DNA of 44,830 nucleotides from a virus (lineage: Duplodnaviria; Heunggongvirae; Uroviricota; Caudoviricetes): the IMG/VR virus record IMGVR_UViG_2740892487_000005, positions 1 to 44,830 of that record. The stretch is one strand, 5' to 3'. The notes beneath the pieces were generated by a model. That model worked only from the letters and a program-made list of their open reading frames with translations, was not told the DNA's origin and did no database searches. The first letter of the stretch is position 1; each line of letters opens with the position of its first letter. The translations under genes were made by a program, and so were the position numbers. Positions 37,858 to 44,830 of the stretch are shown here, one piece after another.

Positions 37858-37912
37858 TGCTGGACCCTCTCAGAGTTCAATATTTCTCCTCACCTTACGT
37901 GAAGGAGGATTT

Positions 37913-38467
37913 ATGCTCGGCTCTCTCAGGGAAATTGTCTTCTCCGTTGCAAAGCATGAAGTTGGACACTGGCTCGCGTGGCATTGCTATGGCGGTTCTT
38001 CATCTGGCATTGAAGTAAAAATTATATCGATTAGTGGGCGACACACAGGTGCCTTTCTACCTGACATGGAGTGGGAAGTGTCTACGCTGGATGACGCTTG
38101 TAAATATTTAAAAGCCAGATTGCTGTGCCTGCACGCTGGTATTTATGCGGAATCTTTTCTCGGCAATATTTACGACGCAGAACGCATAGTCCGTGAGTTT
38201 AACCATCTCGGCGCTGCAGCATCTGATTTTCACCGGAGTATTGAGCTGGCCTGGGCTTACTGCAACCTCACAGGCCGCTCAGATCAATACAGCGCGGTTT
38301 GCAGTGAAATAGACCAGGAGGCGACCAAGCTGGTTGCGGACAATTTTGAATTTATTAAGCACGCAGCGAAAGCGATCTCAGACATGGCGGTTTACGAAGG
38401 TCAGATTATTAAACTCCCTGATTATGAACTGCAATCCATGTATGAAAAATTTAAACGTCAGAGGTGA
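37913..38467 (+). CDS. Stand-alone HExxH zinc metallopeptidase-like protein resembling the FtsH (M41) protease domain
   Basis: 184 aa; HEVGH motif followed by IEVKIISISGRHTGAF and LHAGIYAESFLG, resembling FtsH HEAGHA…HKVTIIPRG…LGGRAAEE. No ATPase domain or TM. Visibly lower GC than flanking tail genes. Confidence 0.6.
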   Translation: MLGSLREIVFSVAKHEVGHWLAWHCYGGSSSGIEVKIISISGRHTGAFLPDMEWEVSTLDDACKYLKARLLCLHAGIYAESFLGNIYDAERIVREFNHLGAAASDFHRSIELAWAYCNLTGRSDQYSAVCSEIDQEATKLVADNFEFIKHAAKAISDMAVYEGQIIKLPDYELQSMYEKFKRQR

Positions 38468-38470
38468 TGA

Positions 38471-38642
38471 ATGGAAAAAGTAACGCTGTCCGTAAAATTT
38501 GATACCACATCATTAGATGAGGCAATCGAGAAGGTCAGGACCTTAAAAAAAAGAACTAAGGGAGCTTGGCTTGCCTTACTTCACCGGCAATCCTCTGGCT
38601 GGATACCAGCCACAACAAGAAGAAAAAGCCACCAACCAGTAA
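38471..38642 (+). CDS. Hypothetical small protein (about 56 aa), partner of the metallopeptidase-like gene; frameshifted in this sequence
   Basis: Removing one A from the A8 run at 38545-38552 gives MEKVTLSVKFDTTSLDEAIEKVRTLKKELRELGLPYFTGNPLAGYQPQQEEKATNQ*, ending exactly at a strong terminator. Confidence 0.4.
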
Positions 38643-38664
38643 GCCGCTTGAAGCGGCTTTTTTT
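38641..38664 (+). terminator. Intrinsic terminator
   Basis: Perfect 7-bp stem AAGCCGC/GCGGCTT with 5-nt loop followed by T7. Confidence 0.8.
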
Positions 38665-38675
38665 ATGAGGCGCCC

Positions 38676-39056
38676 ATGTTCAATCCTGATAAATACCGTT
38701 CTGTCGAGTGGCAGAAGGGCGGACGCGATTACCCCGCACTGGACTGCTTTGGCATCGTCAACGAAATCAGGCGCGATCTTGGCCTGGCTCCGTGGCCTGA
38801 TTTCGCCGGAGTCACAAAGGATGATGACGGCCTCGACCGGGAGGCGCGCGGGCTGATGGCTGGCCTGACGCGATGTGAGCCTGCCCCGGGCGCGGGTATC
38901 GCCTGTTATTCAGGCTCTGTGGTGACGCACGTTGCCATCGTTGTTGAGATTGATGGCCAGCTTCGCGCCGCGGAGTGCAATCCCCGCACTAACGTAACCT
39001 TCCTGCCGCTGGCGCGGTTTGCGCGCCGCTTTGTTCGCGTGGAGTATTACCAGTGA
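38676..39056 (+). CDS. NlpC/P60 (C40) peptidase-like tail protein (gpK-position)
   Basis: 126 aa with Cys (…LDCFGIV…) and His (…VTHVAIV…) in the arrangement of NlpC/P60 catalytic residues. Confidence 0.55.
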   Translation: MFNPDKYRSVEWQKGGRDYPALDCFGIVNEIRRDLGLAPWPDFAGVTKDDDGLDREARGLMAGLTRCEPAPGAGIACYSGSVVTHVAIVVEIDGQLRAAECNPRTNVTFLPLARFARRFVRVEYYQ

Positions 39057-42000
39057 CGATCCGAATCTATCCCTCACGCCTGCCCGGCGAGCCGCTGGAA
39101 AAGCACGAACACGAAACGATGACCCTCAGCGCCTGGTTTGCGCGGAACGTGAAGGACTGGGCACCGGATCAGCAGCATCCGGTTGCGGTTGAAATCGACT
39201 GTGTCCCCGTCCCGGCGTCAGAGTGGCCACTGTGCGTTATCAAACGCGAAACCGACGTCAGGATGTATCCGGTACCATACGGTACGGGAGCAGAAATCGC
39301 GCTGTGGGTGGCCGTCAGTTTGGCTGTCGCCTCTGCTGCGTACAGCATCTACATGATGAGTACCATGTCGCAGGCAGGCGGCGGTGGTTCCCAGGCGGCC
39401 AGCGGTGACCAGATTGACCTCAACCCGGCCAAAGCGAACTCGGCGAAACTCGGTGACCCCATCCGGGAAATCTTCGGCAAATATCGCGTATGGCCTGATT
39501 ACGTCGTGCAGCCGGTGAGCCGGTTCGTCAACGAGACCAGCATGGAAACCAGCATGTTTCTGTGCGTGGGTGTCGGGGACATGGTGATTAACCAGTCCGA
39601 TATCCGGATCGGTAATACGCCAATCTCTGCTTTCGGTACGGACGTGCGTTACACCCTCTACCCGCCTGGCGCCACGGTATCCGGCGACACGCGCACTGAA
39701 AACTGGTTCAACTCACCAGAGGTCGGCAATACCGGCTCCGGTACCGCCGGGCTGGACCTGGGCTCAAGCGGCCCGGAGACGGTCAGTATTATCGCGGATG
39801 CGCTGGTCGTGTCCGGAAACTCCATCACGCTGGTTGACGTATCGTCGTCTGGGGATGAGGAGATCCCGCCGTCCTGGACGGTCGGAACGGTGATCACCGT
39901 GCTGGCACCAAACTCCTATACGGTCGTGTCGTCCGGCGGTTACAGCGTGATTTATGGCGGAGTAGAGGAACTGGCACCAGTGGTCGGCATGCCAGTATCC
40001 CTGAACTATAACGGCAACGACTACGATCTGGTGATCGCCAGCTACGCCCCTGGCGTTCCGGCGGTGCCGGGGGTAGGCGGTAGCGCCGCCAGAATCACAG
40101 CCAGTGCAGCGCCGACGACCTACGATTTCAGCACCACGCCTGTGACGTTCAGCATCAGTTGGCAGGGCACGACTTACCCGGTATCGCTGGTGACCAACTA
40201 TGTCACCATGTCAGGGCTGGTTTCCTCGATCACCTCGCAATTGTCCGGTTCCGGCCTGGTCGCGCGCGATAACAGTGGGCGGCTTGAAATTGGCGAGGCC
40301 AGCAGCCCCTATGCTGGCGGGTCCATTACGAACAGCCCGTTACCCGTTGCTGTGTTCGGTGATGCTCCGGTTAATACGGCTGGCGTGAAATCAACTGGCG
40401 GCACTGCGGAAGTGAGGGCGCACATTACCCTGGCCTACAATAGCGCCACTGGCACGCCATTCACCGGTCTGCCGGAAGGCATCCAGCGGTTCTCTCTGGG
40501 GCTGGCTGGCAATCAGTTCCGGATCACCGACGTGGACAGCCAGACGGTCACGGTTGAGAGGATTGCAGTCACCACCGGACCTGGCGGTGAGACCATCACG
40601 ACGCCAGAACTATCGTGGCCCGGATTCACTGAGCGAACCCTTCTGGACGCGACCGTTACTGGCGTCAGCGACGATTATGAATGGGTGGGGCCGTTCCTCG
40701 CCTGCCCCGACGGCGAAACCATGGACGCATTCGAAGTGAACATCAACTTCCAGAGCGGGCTGGTTCGCTACACCGATAAAGGTAACAAGCGCTCCATGCC
40801 CGTGCGCCTGGTGATCCAGTATCGCAAGGTTGGTACCACCGCCTGGCAGCAGCAGTCTCCGTTCTATTCCCGCAGCACCGAAAACCAGATTGGGTTTACG
40901 CATCGCTACAGCGTCTCACCCGGTCAGTATGAGATCCGTATGCGCCGCACTGAAACGGTTAAAGGTGGCAGCACGCGTGACCAGGTCTTCTGGCAGGCGC
41001 TGCGCTCCCGGCTGAGAAAGCGCCCCACGAAGTACGACGGAGTCACCACCATGGCGCTGACCGTGCGCACAGGGAATCGCCTGGCGGCCATGTCCGATCG
41101 CCGGATAAGTGTCACACCAACCCGGATTTACAGCGGCGGCAGAACGGCGCGGAGCATCAGCGGGGCGCTTTACCACGTCCTGGAGTCACTTGGGTTCACG
41201 ACCAGCCAGATTGATACGGCGGCAATTGACGCGCTGGAACAAACCTACTGGACGCCCCGCGGTGAGAAGTTCGACTGGGCGAGCGGTGAGAGCAAGTCCG
41301 CACTTGAGGTGCTGCAGAAAATCACCAACGCAGGTATGGGGTATTTCCTGCTGTCTGACGGGCTGGCGTCTGCTGGCCGGGAAGGGATTAAACCCTGGGT
41401 AGGCATGATCACCCCGCAGGAAACCACCGAGGAGTTGCAGACCGCGTTTAAGGCCCCGTCTCAGGACGATTACGATGGCGTGGACGTGACGTATATCAAC
41501 GGTACCACCTGGCAGAGGAGACCGTGCAGTGTCGCCTGCCTGGCAACCCTACGCCGGTGAAAATCGAGAGCTACACGCTGGATGGCGTTCTGGACGAGGA
41601 CCGCGCTTACCGCATCGGCATGCGCCGGTTGCTGGGCTACCAGTTGCAGCGCCTGCAGCACACCACCTCAACCGAGATGGATGCGCTCTGCTACGAGTTC
41701 ATGGACCGCATTGTGCTGGCCGATGACATCCCCGGCAGCCAGACACTGAGTTGCCTGATTACCGATATGACGTATGACAGCAGCAAAATCACCCTGACGC
41801 TCAGCGAGGCCCCGGACTGGTCGTTCCAAAGCCCGCGCGTGATTATCCGCCACCATGACGGGCGGGCATCGGCAATGGTTGTGCCGACACACATTGACGA
41901 CTTCACGATCTCGGTGCCGTACAGCGCCGCGCTGGAGCCGGAATTATGGGCAATGAACGATGCGTACATTGAGCCGCCGCGCCTGCTGTTCTGCTCGTCT

Positions 42001-42135
42001 GTCCGTGTGCCGTATGACGCACTGGTGGGGGAAATATCCCCAGGCAATGACGGGATCAGTCAGGTAACAGCCATCCAGTACCACCCAGGAAAGTATGCCT
42101 ATGACGACGCCACTTACCCCGGCGACGCCGCTTAA
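39053..42135 (+). CDS. Large tail host-specificity protein (gpJ-position); split by an indel in this sequence
   Basis: ORFs 39053..41560 (835 aa) and 41524..42135 (203 aa) join with a one-base correction near 41514-41518 (…YINGTTWQ / ETVQCRLPGNPTPVKIESYTLDG…). Confidence 0.7.
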
Positions 42136-42156
42136 AAAAGACTTCAATATTATCTG

Positions 42157-42179
42157 ACCCGCTTCGGCGGGTTTTTTTT
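42157..42179 (+). terminator. Intrinsic terminator
   Basis: Stem ACCCGC/GCGGGT with loop TTCG followed by T8. Confidence 0.8.
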
Positions 42180-42194
42180 ATGCCAGGAGCTAGC

Positions 42195-44186
42195 ATGACC
42201 ACATACGCCACGAATAACCCGAGAGGGTCAATGGATCCGAAGGACCTGTTCGATAACGCCCAGAACCTGGACTTTGCGGTAAACGATATTACCAAAGCAT
42301 TCTGGAAGGACCGCTTCGGCAGAAATCGACCAACAATGTTTGGCATGGAGCAGGCGTTTTCTGCCCAGCTGCTTAGCCAGAAACAGCGCTTTGACAATTT
42401 TATCCAGAGTTCAGGGTATAAGGTTATTGGTGATTATACCGATGGCCCGCTGACTATTACTGAATATAACCAGCTAATCCGTTATCAGAATGAGTTCTAC
42501 AAATTAACCGCCGCCACAACACTGCCGTTTACCACCACCGGTAATGACGCAACATCATGGGCCAATGATTCCCTGCATTTTGTCAGCGTGGGAGATGCTG
42601 CGCTTCGTCAGGAGCTGTCCGCGCCGGGGGGTGCGAGCCTGGTTGGCCCTGGGGTGATGGCTCGTGGTATTGATAAATTCTCAATATTTAATGGCAACCT
42701 AGGGGAAAATGCAACCCCTGGATTACGGGTTGATCTCAATACTCTGACAGGACAATCGACCGGTAACGGTAATTTCCTAAACATGGTTTTTATACCATCC
42801 GATCAATTGGACACCACGGGTAAAGTCGCTGGCCAGATGATTGATCATAGATTCGGAGGCGGTGCCGGAGGTAGACATGGGTTTATGTCAAGATTGATCC
42901 AATCATCACCGCAGTTAAGTACAACAAATGACCAGAACTACGTGGCTGTGGTAGCTCAAGTATTGTGTGATGCAGGCGACCCCATAGAAACATCTACCGG
43001 GTCTGTTCTTTTTGCCAGTGAGTCTTTTGCTGAAAGCCGAACAGATACTGGCAAAGTCAGGGCTGTTATTGGGTCGCTGCATGAGGCAGGGGTCTCAGGA
43101 ACAGTAATTCCACTTGATCGAATTGGCGTTCAAGTAACAAGTCAAGGCACAAAGAATGCCACTCGAGTTGATGCAGCCATTGGTGTGTCATCTGGGACTT
43201 CGCGCGCAGCCTGGAAAAACGGGATTAAGTTTTCAAATGTTACAGGTGGGCAAGTATTTGATTCAACATCCTGTGCAATTATCCTGGATCCAGAATCAAC
43301 ATCACAACCTAAGATGACCCTAGACGCGATTATAAAGGTCAAATCTTCTGATGTAACATTCAACAACATAATAGACACTCCAAGGGTAAAGCTGTCTCAA
43401 TCAGGCCTGGATATTAATTTAAGCTCGTCGTACATAAAACTTGGTGGGACGGTTGCTAGCAATACCCCGCATGTTAGTTTTCGCTCTGGCGCAACAGCCG
43501 CTCCAGGTTTTGATTCTAGATTTATCGCCACTGGAGGCAATGGCTCAGATGCGGGGGGGTCATTACAGGCACAATGCGCTACCCTAATTGTGTCTGGCAC
43601 GCTCAGGCCTAGCTCTGCAAACACATCTCTATGTGGTACGACATCACAACCATGGTCTGGCGGATTTACTCAAACTGCATTCACCGTAACCTCGGACGAA
43701 ACCCACAAGACAAAGCCGATAATGCTAGCTCGTGGCGTTCTGAAGCCTGCGACATCTTTAGATGCCGAAATGATGCCCCCTCCTCATGCTGATACCATTC
43801 TCGACGCATGGGCTGAGGTTGATTTCGTGCAATTCAAGTATCTAGACCGGGTAGAGGCGAAAGGTGAAGACGGTGCCCGTTGGCACTTTGGTGTTATTGC
43901 TCAGAGGGCTATTGAAGCATTTGAGCGCCACGGACTCGACGCATTTGCATTCGGATTTGCGTGCTATGACGAATGGGGCGGGACAGAGGAAGTTATCGAT
44001 GAAGAGTCGGGAGAGGTAATTACTGAGCGAGTTGACGCAGGCTCTAAATACGGCATTCGCTATGAAGAGGCGCTGGTATTGGAGGCAGCTCTCCAACGTC
44101 GCAACTATGCGAGATTGTTGGCCGATCAGGAGACAATGGCCGCACGTATTGAAAAGCTTGAAAGTCTACTCAGTAAGGCGAATTGA
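42195..44186 (+). CDS. Tail fibre/spike protein with C-terminal intramolecular chaperone (peptidase S74-like) domain
   Basis: Start at ATG 42195 after AGGAG. Central region visibly AT-rich. C-terminal …TSDETHK…DAWAEVDFVQFKYLD…GARWHFGVIAQ… resembles the self-cleaving chaperone domain of endosialidase-type fibres. Confidence 0.75.
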   Translation: MTTYATNNPRGSMDPKDLFDNAQNLDFAVNDITKAFWKDRFGRNRPTMFGMEQAFSAQLLSQKQRFDNFIQSSGYKVIGDYTDGPLTITEYNQLIRYQNEFYKLTAATTLPFTTTGNDATSWANDSLHFVSVGDAALRQELSAPGGASLVGPGVMARGIDKFSIFNGNLGENATPGLRVDLNTLTGQSTGNGNFLNMVFIPSDQLDTTGKVAGQMIDHRFGGGAGGRHGFMSRLIQSSPQLSTTNDQNYVAVVAQVLCDAGDPIETSTGSVLFASESFAESRTDTGKVRAVIGSLHEAGVSGTVIPLDRIGVQVTSQGTKNATRVDAAIGVSSGTSRAAWKNGIKFSNVTGGQVFDSTSCAIILDPESTSQPKMTLDAIIKVKSSDVTFNNIIDTPRVKLSQSGLDINLSSSYIKLGGTVASNTPHVSFRSGATAAPGFDSRFIATGGNGSDAGGSLQAQCATLIVSGTLRPSSANTSLCGTTSQPWSGGFTQTAFTVTSDETHKTKPIMLARGVLKPATSLDAEMMPPPHADTILDAWAEVDFVQFKYLDRVEAKGEDGARWHFGVIAQRAIEAFERHGLDAFAFGFACYDEWGGTEEVIDEESGEVITERVDAGSKYGIRYEEALVLEAALQRRNYARLLADQETMAARIEKLESLLSKAN

Positions 44187-44223: not shown

Positions 44224-44243
44224 TACTGTATATAAAAACAGTA
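44224..44243. promoter_or_regulatory. LexA (SOS) box
   Basis: TACTGTATATAAAAACAGTA matches CTGT-N8-ACAG, placed 15 bp upstream of the ATG at 44259. Confidence 0.7.
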
Positions 44244-44258
44244 AAAGGAGTGCAGATC

Positions 44259-44498
44259 ATGCCCCGCCGTTCCGACATTCACGCCGCATTTGTGGCTGCA
44301 ATACAGCAAAACCCTAAAGGTTATCAGTGCCTTCACACGAATGACTTCATCCGTGAGTTGCGCGCCAGGAACTGGCATTTCACGCAGGCCGACGCCAACG
44401 ACTGGATAGAGCGCTATCAGCCCGACTTCGCCGACAAGACTACAGACCTGAGCGTGAACCGCCTGTGGATCCTGCGCAATATGGGGAGGGTTCACTAA
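44259..44498 (+). CDS. Hypothetical SOS-regulated protein (80 aa)
   Basis: ATG 44259 with AAGGAG RBS directly downstream of the LexA box. Confidence 0.5.
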   Translation: MPRRSDIHAAFVAAIQQNPKGYQCLHTNDFIRELRARNWHFTQADANDWIERYQPDFADKTTDLSVNRLWILRNMGRVH

Positions 44499-44830
44499 TG
44501 GGCTTCGCCTCACCAGCTACCGACTATATAGAGCAGCGGGTTACGCCAGCCAGTGTCTGCATGACTCCCGACAGTCGCATCCTCGAGACGTCGGCGGGTT
44601 ATGCGATCATCGTCCCGGTCACGCGCCCACAGCAGGGTGATGCGCTGTTGATTCTGTCCGGAGGTCGGACGCAGTTTGCGAAGCTTAGGGGTAAAGCGTT
44701 AATCACGGATGACGGCGAAGCGATCGAAGGTGATGCAGCTGAAGAGGCTGAGGTTATGAGGCGGGTGACGCACTTTATCAACAGCACTGATGCTGCGATA
44801 TCTCCTGAGGCGGCATTGGCGCAGTTTTGA
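44498..44830 (+). CDS. UmuD'-like protein (resembles pre-processed UmuD, lacks catalytic Ser motif)
   Basis: Coupled start (TAATG) after GGGGAGGG. N-terminus MGFASPATDYIEQR… resembles UmuD residues following its self-cleavage site (GFPSPAADYVEQR…, from memory); no GDSM motif. Confidence 0.45.
   Translation: MGFASPATDYIEQRVTPASVCMTPDSRILETSAGYAIIVPVTRPQQGDALLILSGGRTQFAKLRGKALITDDGEAIEGDAAEEAEVMRRVTHFINSTDAAISPEAALAQF

What the first reader, a model, noticed from the sequence alone, without database searches (positions are those of the whole stretch)
42195..44186. Tail fibre with mosaic, AT-rich receptor-binding region and self-cleaving C-terminal chaperone domain
The N-terminal roughly 150 residues look like a conserved virion-attachment region. 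The central part appears AT-richer and is likely the exchangeable receptor-binding or depolymerase domain. The C-terminus carries the SDxxxK-type autoproteolytic intramolecular chaperone signature (…TSDETHK…). This architecture determines host range and is a frequent recombination hotspot.
Basis: partly seen in the sequence, partly recalled or inferred. Interest (0 to 1): 0.4.

Follow-up and report, generated by a model that had tools for sequence, protein, structure and literature searches.

The report
Modular prophage tail fibre, self-cleaving chaperone
This is a three-module prophage tail fibre gene (tail anchor, swappable receptor-recognition centre, self-removing folding domain) in an E. 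coli isolate; the kind is well known and ordinary, though its central domain belongs to a large family that no database annotates.

Summary
The gene runs 42195-44186 (+) and encodes 663 aa. The start is the ATG at 42195, which follows an AGGAG; the mechanical ORF start at 42180 lies on a terminator T-run.

The C-terminus is a real Peptidase_S74 intramolecular chaperone domain (Pfam 42.1 bits against a cut-off of 22; phi29 gp12 chaperone E=4e-25). The Ser500/Lys505 pair sits inside ...TSDETHK....

Residues 1 to about 150 form an anchor shared by 118 of 120 relatives, always downstream of a TipJ-type tail-tip gene. Behind that anchor sit at least 15 unrelated central regions.

The centre is the most AT-rich part at third codon positions (GC3 0.37, against 0.57 for the anchor and 0.48 for the chaperone). 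However, the whole gene is AT-rich compared with its neighbours (0.68-0.77).

DNA comparisons show sharp recombination breakpoints in two conserved boxes, one of them 1-3 codons past the predicted cleavage site.

Verdict: a new member of a known kind, of low to moderate interest.

The parts
42156..42179 (+). Terminator-like hairpin plus T-run between the J-like tail-tip gene and the fibre gene.
   Evidence: 7-bp stem with 5 GC pairs, 4-nt loop, T8. The sequence is shown.
42186..42190 (+). Ribosome-binding site (AGGAG), 5 nt upstream of the ATG at 42195.
   Evidence: Read from the sequence. Homologues start MTTY.
42195..44186 (+). Tail fibre / tailspike gene. It encodes a 663-aa precursor of 71.0 kDa.
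   Evidence: The exact protein is on record in NCBI assembly GCA_001631005.1.
42195..42614 (+). N-terminal anchor module (aa 1-140), the inferred virion-attachment domain.
   Evidence: It is present at 59-100% identity in 118 of 120 homologues. PHROG tail families 32929, 15518 and 34100 match it. It always lies downstream of a TipJ-type gene. In P2-like and T7-like contexts other anchors take its place.
42570..42660 (+). Junction box 1 (SLHFVSVGDAALRQELSAPGGASLVGPGVM), a conserved GC-rich linker where the anchor/centre crossovers map.
   Evidence: Mismatch maps. GC is 0.65 over nt 42570-42644 of the box. The same VSVGDAALR box occurs in proteins with other anchors, namely P0005 and 9vvr.
42645..43364 (+). 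Core of the central module (aa 151-390), the inferred receptor-recognition domain and possibly an enzyme. It carries the conserved motifs KV.G, H.FGG..GGRH, D.NYV and GD.
   Evidence: It has no Pfam, NCBIfam or PDB sequence match, and no PHROG match for residues about 152-405. The family has 2,290 cluster representatives at E<=1e-3. Conserved residues are listed.
43365..43691 (+). Stalk / neck (aa 391-499) leading into the cleavage site. It resembles the stalks of endosialidase, K5 lyase and AS12 gp42.
   Evidence: pLDDT is 81-94 across most of this stretch. The best Foldseek matches are the endoNF and phi92 endosialidases, over about 158 aligned columns, which I read as their stalk regions.
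43650..43700 (+). Junction box 2 (PWSGGFTQTAFTVTSDE), where the centre/chaperone crossovers map.
   Evidence: Identity to L001 collapses from 43702 onward. Near-identity to L004 begins at about 43657.
43692..43709 (+). Predicted catalytic pair Ser500 ... Lys505 (S-D-E-T-H-K). The predicted scissile bond is Ser500|Asp501.
   Evidence: T499, S500, D501 and K505 are invariant in 24 of 24 aligned relatives. The i/i+5 spacing matches that described for the endosialidase and MYRF dyad (PMC3742443). The mature K5 lyase chain 2x3h ends at the residue aligned to S500.
43695..44183 (+). C-terminal intramolecular chaperone / autoprocessing domain (aa 501-663, 18.3 kDa), predicted to be released after trimer assembly.
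   Evidence: PF13884: 42.1 bits, E=1e-10, cut-off 22. PDB matches: 9vvr 1e-46, 3gud (phi29 gp12 chaperone) 4e-25, 3gw6 (K1F endoNF chaperone) 1e-10, 4uw8 (T5 pb1) 2e-7.

Best explanation
The gene encodes the host-recognition tail fibre (tailspike-like) of a lambdoid, TipJ-type siphovirus prophage in E. coli RCE11. It is made of three exchangeable modules.

(1) An anchor of about 140-150 aa docks the trimer on this particular tail type.

(2) A central region (aa about 151-499) is predicted to be elongated and probably intertwined as a trimer, ending in a stalk. It recognises, and possibly cleaves, a surface polysaccharide.

(3) A C-terminal S74 intramolecular chaperone domain templates trimerisation of the stalk. 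It then cuts itself off after Ser500 using the Ser500/Lys505 pair. This leaves a mature 52.7-kDa subunit and releases an 18.3-kDa fragment. No separate tail-fibre assembly gene is needed, and none is present.

The gene was assembled by homologous recombination in two conserved junction boxes. As a result the anchor, the centre and the chaperone each have different closest relatives and different codon composition.

What is shown: domain identity, conservation of the dyad, modularity, the breakpoints and the composition. What is inferred: attachment to the tail, trimerisation, actual cleavage, the nature of the receptor, and any enzymatic activity.
For: S74 domain. PF13884 scores above threshold. 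There are strong sequence matches to solved chaperone domains of phi29 gp12, K1F endoNF, T5 pb1 and a tailspike, 9vvr. T499, S500, D501 and K505 are invariant in 24 of 24 relatives. The literature describes a Ser-Lys dyad, with cleavage triggered only in the correctly folded trimer.

Anchor. It is conserved in 118 of 120 relatives. It lies downstream of a TipJ-type gene in the window, in L001/L002 and in E. coli MB20. The same central domain carries a Tail_spike_N anchor in a P2-like baseplate locus (P0005), and carries T7 tail-fibre N-termini in other members.

Mosaicism. Against L001, DNA identity is 62-78% in the anchor, 94-100% in the centre and 42-72% in the chaperone. Against L004 it is 78-94%, 31-52% and 99-100% respectively. 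The breakpoints fall at 42537-42660 and 43657-43701. Behind the same junction motif there are at least 15 unrelated centre types.

Composition. GC3 is 0.57 / 0.37 / 0.48 for the three modules, against 0.68-0.77 in neighbouring tail genes.

No tail-fibre assembly ORF follows the gene. The next feature is a LexA box and an SOS-type operon.
Against: Nothing has been tested biochemically. No tool here can show cleavage, trimerisation or binding.

The endoNF stalk arginine (R897), which is reported to assist cleavage, has no obvious counterpart 14-15 residues upstream of Ser500. That position is Gln485, whereas 9vvr has Arg.

The upstream J-like gene is frameshifted in this assembly, which would make the prophage tail defective if it is real. 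However, it is a GGG to GG change in an Ion Torrent assembly.

The model of the centre is of only moderate confidence (pLDDT about 65-80 for aa 180-390) and is a monomer.
Confidence: 0.85

Rival explanations
1. The central module is an active polysaccharide depolymerase (lyase or hydrolase) built on an intertwined triple-stranded beta-helix, the 'triple helix' depolymerase class. The fibre would then digest capsule or O-antigen as well as bind it. This refines the best explanation rather than excluding it.
For: The family of about 2,290 clusters keeps a set of polar residues nearly invariant at only 22-37% overall identity. Of these, D203, K210, H218, R227, H228, D246, N248, Y249, D262 and D326 are all present here.

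The same anchor carries known enzyme domains in sister proteins, including pectate-lyase-like, endosialidase, SASA and GDSL esterase domains.

Triple-helix depolymerases that depend on intramolecular chaperones are a recognised class (PMC11326577).

Against: The window's subgroup departs from the family consensus at several near-invariant positions: GDGG becomes GDPI (263-264), G270 is S, N290 is A, and E295 is L (98 of 103 members have Glu).

Conserved glycines and polar residues could also be structural.
Confidence: 0.4
2. The central module is a purely receptor-binding fibre shaft and tip with no catalytic activity. The conserved motifs are needed only for the intertwined fold.
For: The monomer model is elongated and fibre-like, with hardly any intrachain sheets. 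BFVD matches are annotated as tail fibres. No enzyme family matches. The subgroup has lost some of the family's conserved polar residues. T5 pb1, which carries the same chaperone, is a non-enzymatic fibre (the T5 point is from my own knowledge).
Against: Invariant Arg-His, Asp-x-Asn-Tyr and Asp residues across very divergent members are unusual for a purely structural shaft. The closest shapes in the PDB are enzymes.
Confidence: 0.4
3. The gene is a relic in a defective prophage and is no longer used. The composition pattern and modularity are historical only.
For: The upstream J-like tail-tip gene is split into 835-aa and 203-aa ORFs, and it was not called as a gene in the source record.
Against: The split is a single-base loss in a G-run (GGG to GG near 41511) relative to the intact 1027-aa gene in L001. 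The genome was sequenced on an Ion Torrent PGM, whose homopolymer errors the authors themselves discuss.

The fibre ORF is intact, with its RBS and all S74 invariant residues. It is 98% identical to an independent metagenomic copy.
Confidence: 0.1
4. The AT-richness of the centre reflects amino-acid content or local selection on codons, not a separate evolutionary origin.
For: Total GC differs little between the anchor (0.486) and the centre (0.467). Ser/Thr/Asn/Gly-rich fibre sequences have biased composition.
Against: The difference is at synonymous third positions (0.57 versus 0.37, p=4.6e-5). The same centre has GC3 0.37 in L001, where it is joined to a different anchor variant and chaperone. 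The breakpoints in DNA identity coincide with the module borders.
Confidence: 0.1

Closest known systems
Coliphage K1F endosialidase (endoNF) and its C-terminal intramolecular chaperone domain (PDB 3GW6, 1V0E)
   Same: The architecture is the same: N-terminal anchor, functional centre, triple-beta-helix stalk, and a C-terminal S74 domain with a Ser-Lys dyad at i/i+5. The chaperone domain matches at E=1e-10 to 2e-12. The stalk is the best Foldseek match to the model.
   Different: The centre here is not a sialidase beta-propeller. The chaperone is only distantly related. No equivalent of the stalk Arg897 is evident (Gln485). A segment of about 20 aa (LARGVLKPATSLDAEMMPPPH) follows the cleavage site and is absent from 9vvr.
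Tail spike protein of PDB entry 9VVR (843 aa, 18 chains in the entry)
   Same: This is the closest solved relative. The neck plus chaperone match at E=1e-46 and include ...WSGGFTQ(S/T)AFTV(V/T)SD.... The VSVGDAALR junction box is also shared.
   Different: It has a different, longer N-terminal region and a different central region. No paper on the entry was found in the library.
K5 lyase KflA / ElmA (PDB 2X3H), phi29 gp12 neck appendage (3GUD) and T5 L-shaped tail fibre pb1 (4UW8)
   Same: These belong to the other phage protein families in which this chaperone domain was defined (GP12 of Bacillus phage GA-1 is the neck-appendage example named, PMC8326128; phi29 gp12 is its counterpart). The match to phi29 gp12 is E=4e-25. 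The mature K5 lyase chain ends exactly at the residue aligned to Ser500.
   Different: Their functional domains are a right-handed beta-helix lyase or a non-enzymatic fibre tip. None is homologous to the centre found here.
Streptococcal phage hyaluronate lyase HylP (PL16; PDB 6WV2) and 'triple helix' depolymerases
   Different: There is no sequence relationship (hhalign probability 0.08%; no Pfam Hyaluronidase_1 hit). The similarity is of predicted overall shape only.
Tail fibre genes of sister prophages (Leclercia, Enterobacter, Citrobacter, Kluyvera, E. coli MB20) and the tail spike of Escherichia phage EcoPhCCP1
   Same: The anchor and the synteny (TipJ-type gene followed by the fibre) are the same. 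EcoPhCCP1 and about 20 prophage proteins share the central family at 26-31% identity.
   Different: Most carry other centres, of at least 15 types. Only P0001, P0002 and P0005 have this centre at 66% identity or more. No complete E. coli genome has this centre or this chaperone at a DNA level detectable by megablast.

Membership tests
Peptidase_S74 / intramolecular chaperone autoprocessing domain (CIMCD, ICA) | Profile match to PF13884 above the curated threshold, and homology to solved chaperone domains. | tested here: met
   42.1 bits against a cut-off of 22, E=1e-10. PDB matches: 3gud 4e-25, 3gw6 1e-10, 4uw8 2e-7, 9vvr 1e-46.
Peptidase_S74 / intramolecular chaperone autoprocessing domain (CIMCD, ICA) | A conserved Ser and a Lys five residues downstream (the catalytic dyad) at the N-terminal border of the domain. 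| tested here: met
   S500 and K505 lie in TSDETHK. Both are invariant in 24 of 24 relatives. 88 of the 120 homologues carry SDxxxK. The spacing is as in the endosialidase and MYRF dyad.
Peptidase_S74 / intramolecular chaperone autoprocessing domain (CIMCD, ICA) | C-terminal position, directly after a triple-beta-helix stalk whose folding it assists. | tested here: inconclusive
   The domain is C-terminal. The preceding 30-110 residues match the endoNF, phi92, AS12 and K5 lyase stalks by profile and weakly by fold (Foldseek E=0.14, probability 0.9). Only a monomer could be modelled, so intertwining was not seen directly.
Peptidase_S74 / intramolecular chaperone autoprocessing domain (CIMCD, ICA) | A stalk arginine that assists cleavage (endoNF Arg897). 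| tested here: inconclusive
   There is no Arg 11-15 residues upstream of S500 (Q485 and W487 occupy that stretch), whereas 9vvr has Arg at -15. Equivalence cannot be judged without a trimer structure.
Peptidase_S74 / intramolecular chaperone autoprocessing domain (CIMCD, ICA) | Actual autoproteolytic release of the domain, and chaperone-dependent trimerisation. | not testable with these tools
   This needs protein expression and S500A / K505A mutants.
Right-handed parallel beta-helix depolymerases (Pectate_lyase_3 / Beta_helix tailspikes) | A profile match to PF12708, PF13229 or related families in the central region. | tested here: not met
   There is no Pfam hit for the centre of the window protein, or for any of 14 family members, even at E<=10. 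Some distant members have a short PF12708-like cap, but it lies upstream of the shared domain.
Right-handed parallel beta-helix depolymerases (Pectate_lyase_3 / Beta_helix tailspikes) | A single-chain right-handed beta-helix fold. | tested here: not met
PL16 phage hyaluronate lyase (HylP) / triple-stranded beta-helix enzymes | Sequence homology to HylP (Pfam Hyaluronidase_1). | tested here: not met
   hhalign of the family profile against HylP.1 of phage 315.1 gives probability 0.08%. There is no Pfam hit.
PL16 phage hyaluronate lyase (HylP) / triple-stranded beta-helix enzymes | An intertwined triple-stranded beta-helix fold. | tested here: inconclusive
PL16 phage hyaluronate lyase (HylP) / triple-stranded beta-helix enzymes | Catalytic residues and lyase activity. 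| not tested
   No residue-level structural alignment was available, and activity needs experiment.
Lambda Stf-type side tail fibre with a separate Tfa assembly chaperone | A tail-fibre assembly gene immediately downstream. | tested here: not met
   After the stop at 44186 come a LexA box (44224-44243), a 79-aa ORF (phrog_3893, unknown function) and a UmuD-like ORF. Chaperoning is intramolecular instead.

The most novel reading that the evidence does not exclude
The central domain (aa about 151-390) represents a large family, with about 2,290 clusters at 50% identity, that currently has no annotation. It carries the signature KV.G - H.FGG..GGRH - D(R/Q)NYV - GD(GG). On this reading it is a new catalytic family of intertwined ('triple helix') polysaccharide depolymerases, spread across siphovirus, P2-like myovirus and T7-like podovirus receptor-binding proteins. 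The window's copy would be a divergent branch with a relocated acidic residue (E295L, with Glu297 two positions on).
Probability: 0.3. Interest if true: 0.5.

Novelty: new member of a known kind. Interest (0 to 1): 0.25.

Why it matters
The gene is a clean, well-resolved example of three-module shuffling in a receptor-binding protein. Crossover points can be placed within a few tens of bases in two conserved boxes, and one of them lies essentially at the self-cleavage site. That is useful for engineering phage host range, because it shows where the module borders can be cut. It is also useful for annotation: the central family is widespread, yet has no Pfam, NCBIfam or PDB sequence match and no PHROG match over residues about 152-405. 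It does not change any concept. Tail fibres that carry an S74 chaperone and have swappable centres are textbook material.

Tried and rejected
(1) Full-length AF2 with a 24-sequence alignment gave pLDDT 49.6 and was unusable, so I repeated it on aa 132-500 with 103 sequences.

(2) A word-indexed homologue search with the centre alone found nothing, and with the centre profile found only 12 proteins. I took this to be a limit of the candidate pre-filter and used the exhaustive search instead.

(3) A PDB sequence search with the centre profile gave 0 hits at E<=10. The apparent 6eu4 (AS12 gp42) match turned out to cover only the stalk and chaperone.

(4) The pectate-lyase / right-handed beta-helix idea was rejected.

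(5) Homology to HylP was rejected.

(6) Megablast against phage genomes gave no match. In E. coli genomes only the anchor matched.

(7) The genome-contig scan with the single protein found nothing. With the family alignment it found only distant chaperone-bearing loci in other phyla, which were not informative.

(8) A literature search for PDB entry 9VVR found no paper.

(9) I considered that the split J-like gene marks a dead prophage. This was judged unlikely, because the change is a homopolymer indel in Ion Torrent data.

(10) PADLOC scans of neighbouring small ORFs gave no hits.
Full report
NUMBERING. Residues are counted from the Met encoded at 42195 (663 aa). Searches used the mechanical 668-aa ORF that starts at 42180, so their residue numbers are 5 higher.

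The ORF list gives 42180..44186 on the + strand.
- AGGAG at 42186-42190 lies 5 nt upstream of that ATG.
- The ATG at 42180 directly follows the T-run of a terminator-like hairpin (GACCCGCTTCGGCGGGTTTTTTTT, 42156-42179).
- The nearest relatives start MTTY....

The heptapeptide TSDETHK is at residues 499-505, nt 43689-43709.

Pfam finds a single family, Peptidase_S74, at 42.1 bits against a gathering score of 22 (E=1e-10). The same C-terminal stretch matches several solved proteins:
- the chaperone domain of phi29 gp12 (3gud, E=4e-25)
- the chaperone domain of K1F endosialidase (3gw6, 1e-10)
- the T5 L-shaped fibre (4uw8)
- a tailspike (9vvr, 1e-46)

Composition is as follows.

| Region | GC | GC3 |
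|---|---|---|
| Neighbouring tail genes | about 0.57-0.60 | 0.68-0.77 |
| Whole fibre gene | 0.487 | 0.44 (p=8e-29 versus the J-like gene) |
| Anchor | 0.486 | 0.573 |
| Centre | 0.467 | 0.373 |
| Chaperone domain | 0.512 | 0.476 |

Fisher p is 4.6e-5 for anchor versus centre and 0.03 for chaperone versus centre.

So the AT-richer centre is real at synonymous sites. However, the whole gene is compositionally foreign to the prophage, and total GC barely separates anchor from centre.

2. WHAT IS THERE?

Source. The exact protein is on record in NCBI assembly GCA_001631005.1, contig LAWZ01000002.1. That accession belongs to E. coli RCE11, a phylogroup A isolate from a Crohn's disease patient, sequenced on an Ion Torrent PGM (PMC5517970). 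The host flank (yebC-ruvCAB) is 99.9% identical to E. coli.

Gene order. The local order is: tape measure, 156-aa ORF, DUF1833, [low-GC insert], CHAP-like ORF, TipJ-type tail-tip gene, fibre, LexA box, 79-aa ORF, UmuD-like ORF, host genes.

Anchor (aa 1 to about 150).
- Of the 120 best homologues, 118 share residues 1-140 at 59-100% identity, whatever follows.
- PHROG tail families match residues 1-151.
- In complete E. coli genomes only the first 401-456 nt of the gene have a DNA match.
- The anchor tracks the tail type. It sits behind a TipJ-type gene in the window, in L001/L002 and in E. coli MB20.
- The same central domain is joined to a Tail_spike_N anchor in a P2-like baseplate locus (P0005), and to T7 tail-fibre N-termini in other members.
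- This is good comparative evidence for a virion-attachment role, but it remains an inference.

Centre (aa about 151-499).
- Only P0001 (97%), P0002 (96%) and P0005 (66%) have this centre closely. About 20 other anchor-bearing proteins have a homologous centre at 26-31% identity.
- There is no Pfam or NCBIfam hit. No PHROG hit covers residues about 152-405.
- A profile of 14 centres finds nothing in the PDB at E<=10.
- An exhaustive profile search of 1.84 billion representatives nevertheless finds 2,290 clusters at E<=1e-3 and 1,039 at <=1e-10. Of the 148 held proteins that cover most of the domain, 80 have an [ST]SDxxxK motif downstream of it.
- The family keeps a polar signature: D203, K210, H218, F220, G221-222, G225-226, R227, H228, D246, N248, Y249, D262, F273 and D326. 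All of these are present here.
- The window's subgroup departs from near-invariant positions: GDGG becomes GDPI, G270 is S, N290 is A, and E295 is L.

Fold of the centre.
- The full-length model was poor (pLDDT 49.6).
- A model of aa 132-500 built on 103 sequences reached pLDDT 78.3 and pTM 0.66. The stalk (aa about 390-490) scores about 81-94, and the core about 65-80. DSSP assigns no intrachain strands over aa about 181-397.
- Foldseek against the PDB gave nothing better than E=0.14. The best matches were the endoNF and phi92 endosialidases, over about 158 columns, which I read as their stalk regions.
- BFVD returned other S74-bearing tail fibres, weakly.
- My reading is that the chain is elongated and probably intertwines in the trimer (the 'triple helix' class). 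It is not a pectate-lyase-type beta-helix.
- There is no sequence homology to HylP (hhalign probability 0.08%), so the resemblance is one of shape only.

Chaperone module (aa 501-663).
- T499, S500, D501 and K505 are invariant in 24 of 24 aligned relatives.
- The Ser-Lys spacing equals that of the endosialidase and MYRF dyad.
- The mature K5 lyase chain (2x3h) ends at the residue aligned with S500. This fits cleavage after the serine, which is the published rule (Schwarzer et al. 2007, cited as reference 8 in PMC8326128; the wording is from my own knowledge).
- The predicted products are 52.7 and 18.3 kDa.
- A segment of about 20 aa after the site is absent from 9vvr but present in P0003 and P0008.
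- The endoNF helper Arg897 has no obvious counterpart. The residue 15 upstream of S500 is Gln485, whereas 9vvr has Arg.

3. MOSAICISM

DNA identity to the two informative relatives, by module:

| Relative | Anchor | Centre | Chaperone |
|---|---|---|---|
| L001 (encodes P0002) | 62-78% | 94-100% | 42-72% |
| L004 (encodes P0003) | 78-94% | 31-52% | 99-100% |

Mismatch maps place the crossovers in two conserved boxes.
- The first lies at 42537-42660, the box SLHFVSVGDAALRQELSAPGGASLVGPGVM. The first 75 nt of this box (42570-42644) have GC 0.65.
- The second lies at 43657-43701, the box PWSGGFTQTAFTVTSDE.
- Identity to L001 collapses from 43702, which is 1-3 codons past the predicted scissile bond.
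- The first box is also present in proteins with unrelated anchors, P0005 and 9vvr.
- Among 88 proteins with the junction motif there are at least 15 unrelated centre types. Those with Pfam labels include pectate-lyase-like, endosialidase, SASA and GDSL esterase domains.

The 'recombination hotspot' statement is therefore supported.

4. MECHANISM

The precursor subunits associate through the C-terminal chaperone domain. The domain nucleates the stalk and the intertwined centre, then cleaves itself off after Ser500. The mature trimer docks by its anchor on the TipJ-type tail tip and recognises a surface polysaccharide. In this way it sets host range.

Shown here: domain identities, dyad conservation, modular exchange, breakpoints and composition. 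Inferred: trimerisation, cleavage, attachment, receptor class and catalysis.

I put 0.85 on this overall picture. Within it, I give roughly 0.4 to an active depolymerase and 0.4 to a binding-only fibre.

5. COMPARISON AND NOVELTY

The gene passes the membership tests that sequence can address for the S74 intramolecular-chaperone family. It fails those for right-handed beta-helix depolymerases and for PL16 (HylP). It works like K1F endoNF, K5 lyase and phi29 gp12 in assembly, but with a different and unannotated centre.

It is a new member of a known kind. The only mildly novel element is the size of the central family, which lacks Pfam, NCBIfam and PDB sequence matches, together with its conserved polar signature.

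6. VERDICT

Interest is 0.25.

Noticed in passing
window 44224-44243, with ORFs 44259-44498 and 44498-44830 (+): A perfect SOS/LexA box (TACTGTATATAAAAACAGTA, i.e. CTG-N10-CAG) lies 38 nt after the fibre stop codon. It is unique in the window, with 0 matches expected by chance. It precedes a 79-aa ORF (phrog_3893, unknown function; the counterpart in E. coli MB20 is annotated 'DNA polymerase V') and a UmuD-like ORF (phrog_3469, E=6.5e-41) that starts MGFASPATDYIEQR and therefore lacks most of UmuD's N-terminal arm. This looks like a LexA-controlled cargo operon at the prophage end. The same pair follows the fibre gene in L001 and MB20.
   Followed up: partly
window 39053-42135, break near 41511: The TipJ-type tail-tip gene is split into 835-aa and 203-aa ORFs in different frames, and was not called as a gene in the source record. 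Alignment with the intact 1027-aa gene of L001 shows a single-base loss in a G-run (ACATGGGCAG versus ACCT-GGCAG). The assembly is from Ion Torrent PGM data, so this is most likely a homopolymer sequencing error rather than a pseudogene.
   Followed up: yes
window about 37860-38670: A low-GC insert (GC 0.42-0.48, against about 0.57-0.60 around it) sits between the DUF1833 gene and the CHAP-like gene. It carries a 184-aa ORF (37913-38467) with an HEVGHW zinc-protease-like motif, plus a 65-aa ORF. In L001 the two flanking genes are adjacent, so this is a moron-like insertion. The 184-aa ORF hits only phrog_36675 (unknown function), with no Pfam or PADLOC match.
   Followed up: partly
window 42156-42179: A strong terminator-like hairpin with T8 lies between the tail-tip gene and the fibre gene, only 6 nt before the fibre's RBS. 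If it is functional, the fibre would be expressed only from an antiterminated late transcript or by read-through. This was not examined further.
   Followed up: no
L001 11994-12287 and L016 7294-7587 (no counterpart in the window): In relatives whose fibres carry a different C-terminal chaperone variant, a 97-aa ORF overlaps the fibre stop codon. The window goes straight to the LexA box. The function of the ORF is unknown. It may travel with that C-terminal module.
   Followed up: no
window 21000-42135 versus 42195-44186 and the host flanks: The prophage structural genes have GC 0.57-0.60 and GC3 about 0.68-0.77. From my own knowledge the E. coli average GC is about 0.51, so these values are well above it. 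Most named relatives of the fibre come from Leclercia, Enterobacter, Citrobacter and Kluyvera. This suggests the prophage circulates mainly in higher-GC Enterobacteriaceae. No complete E. coli genome carries this centre or this chaperone at a level detectable by megablast.
   Followed up: partly
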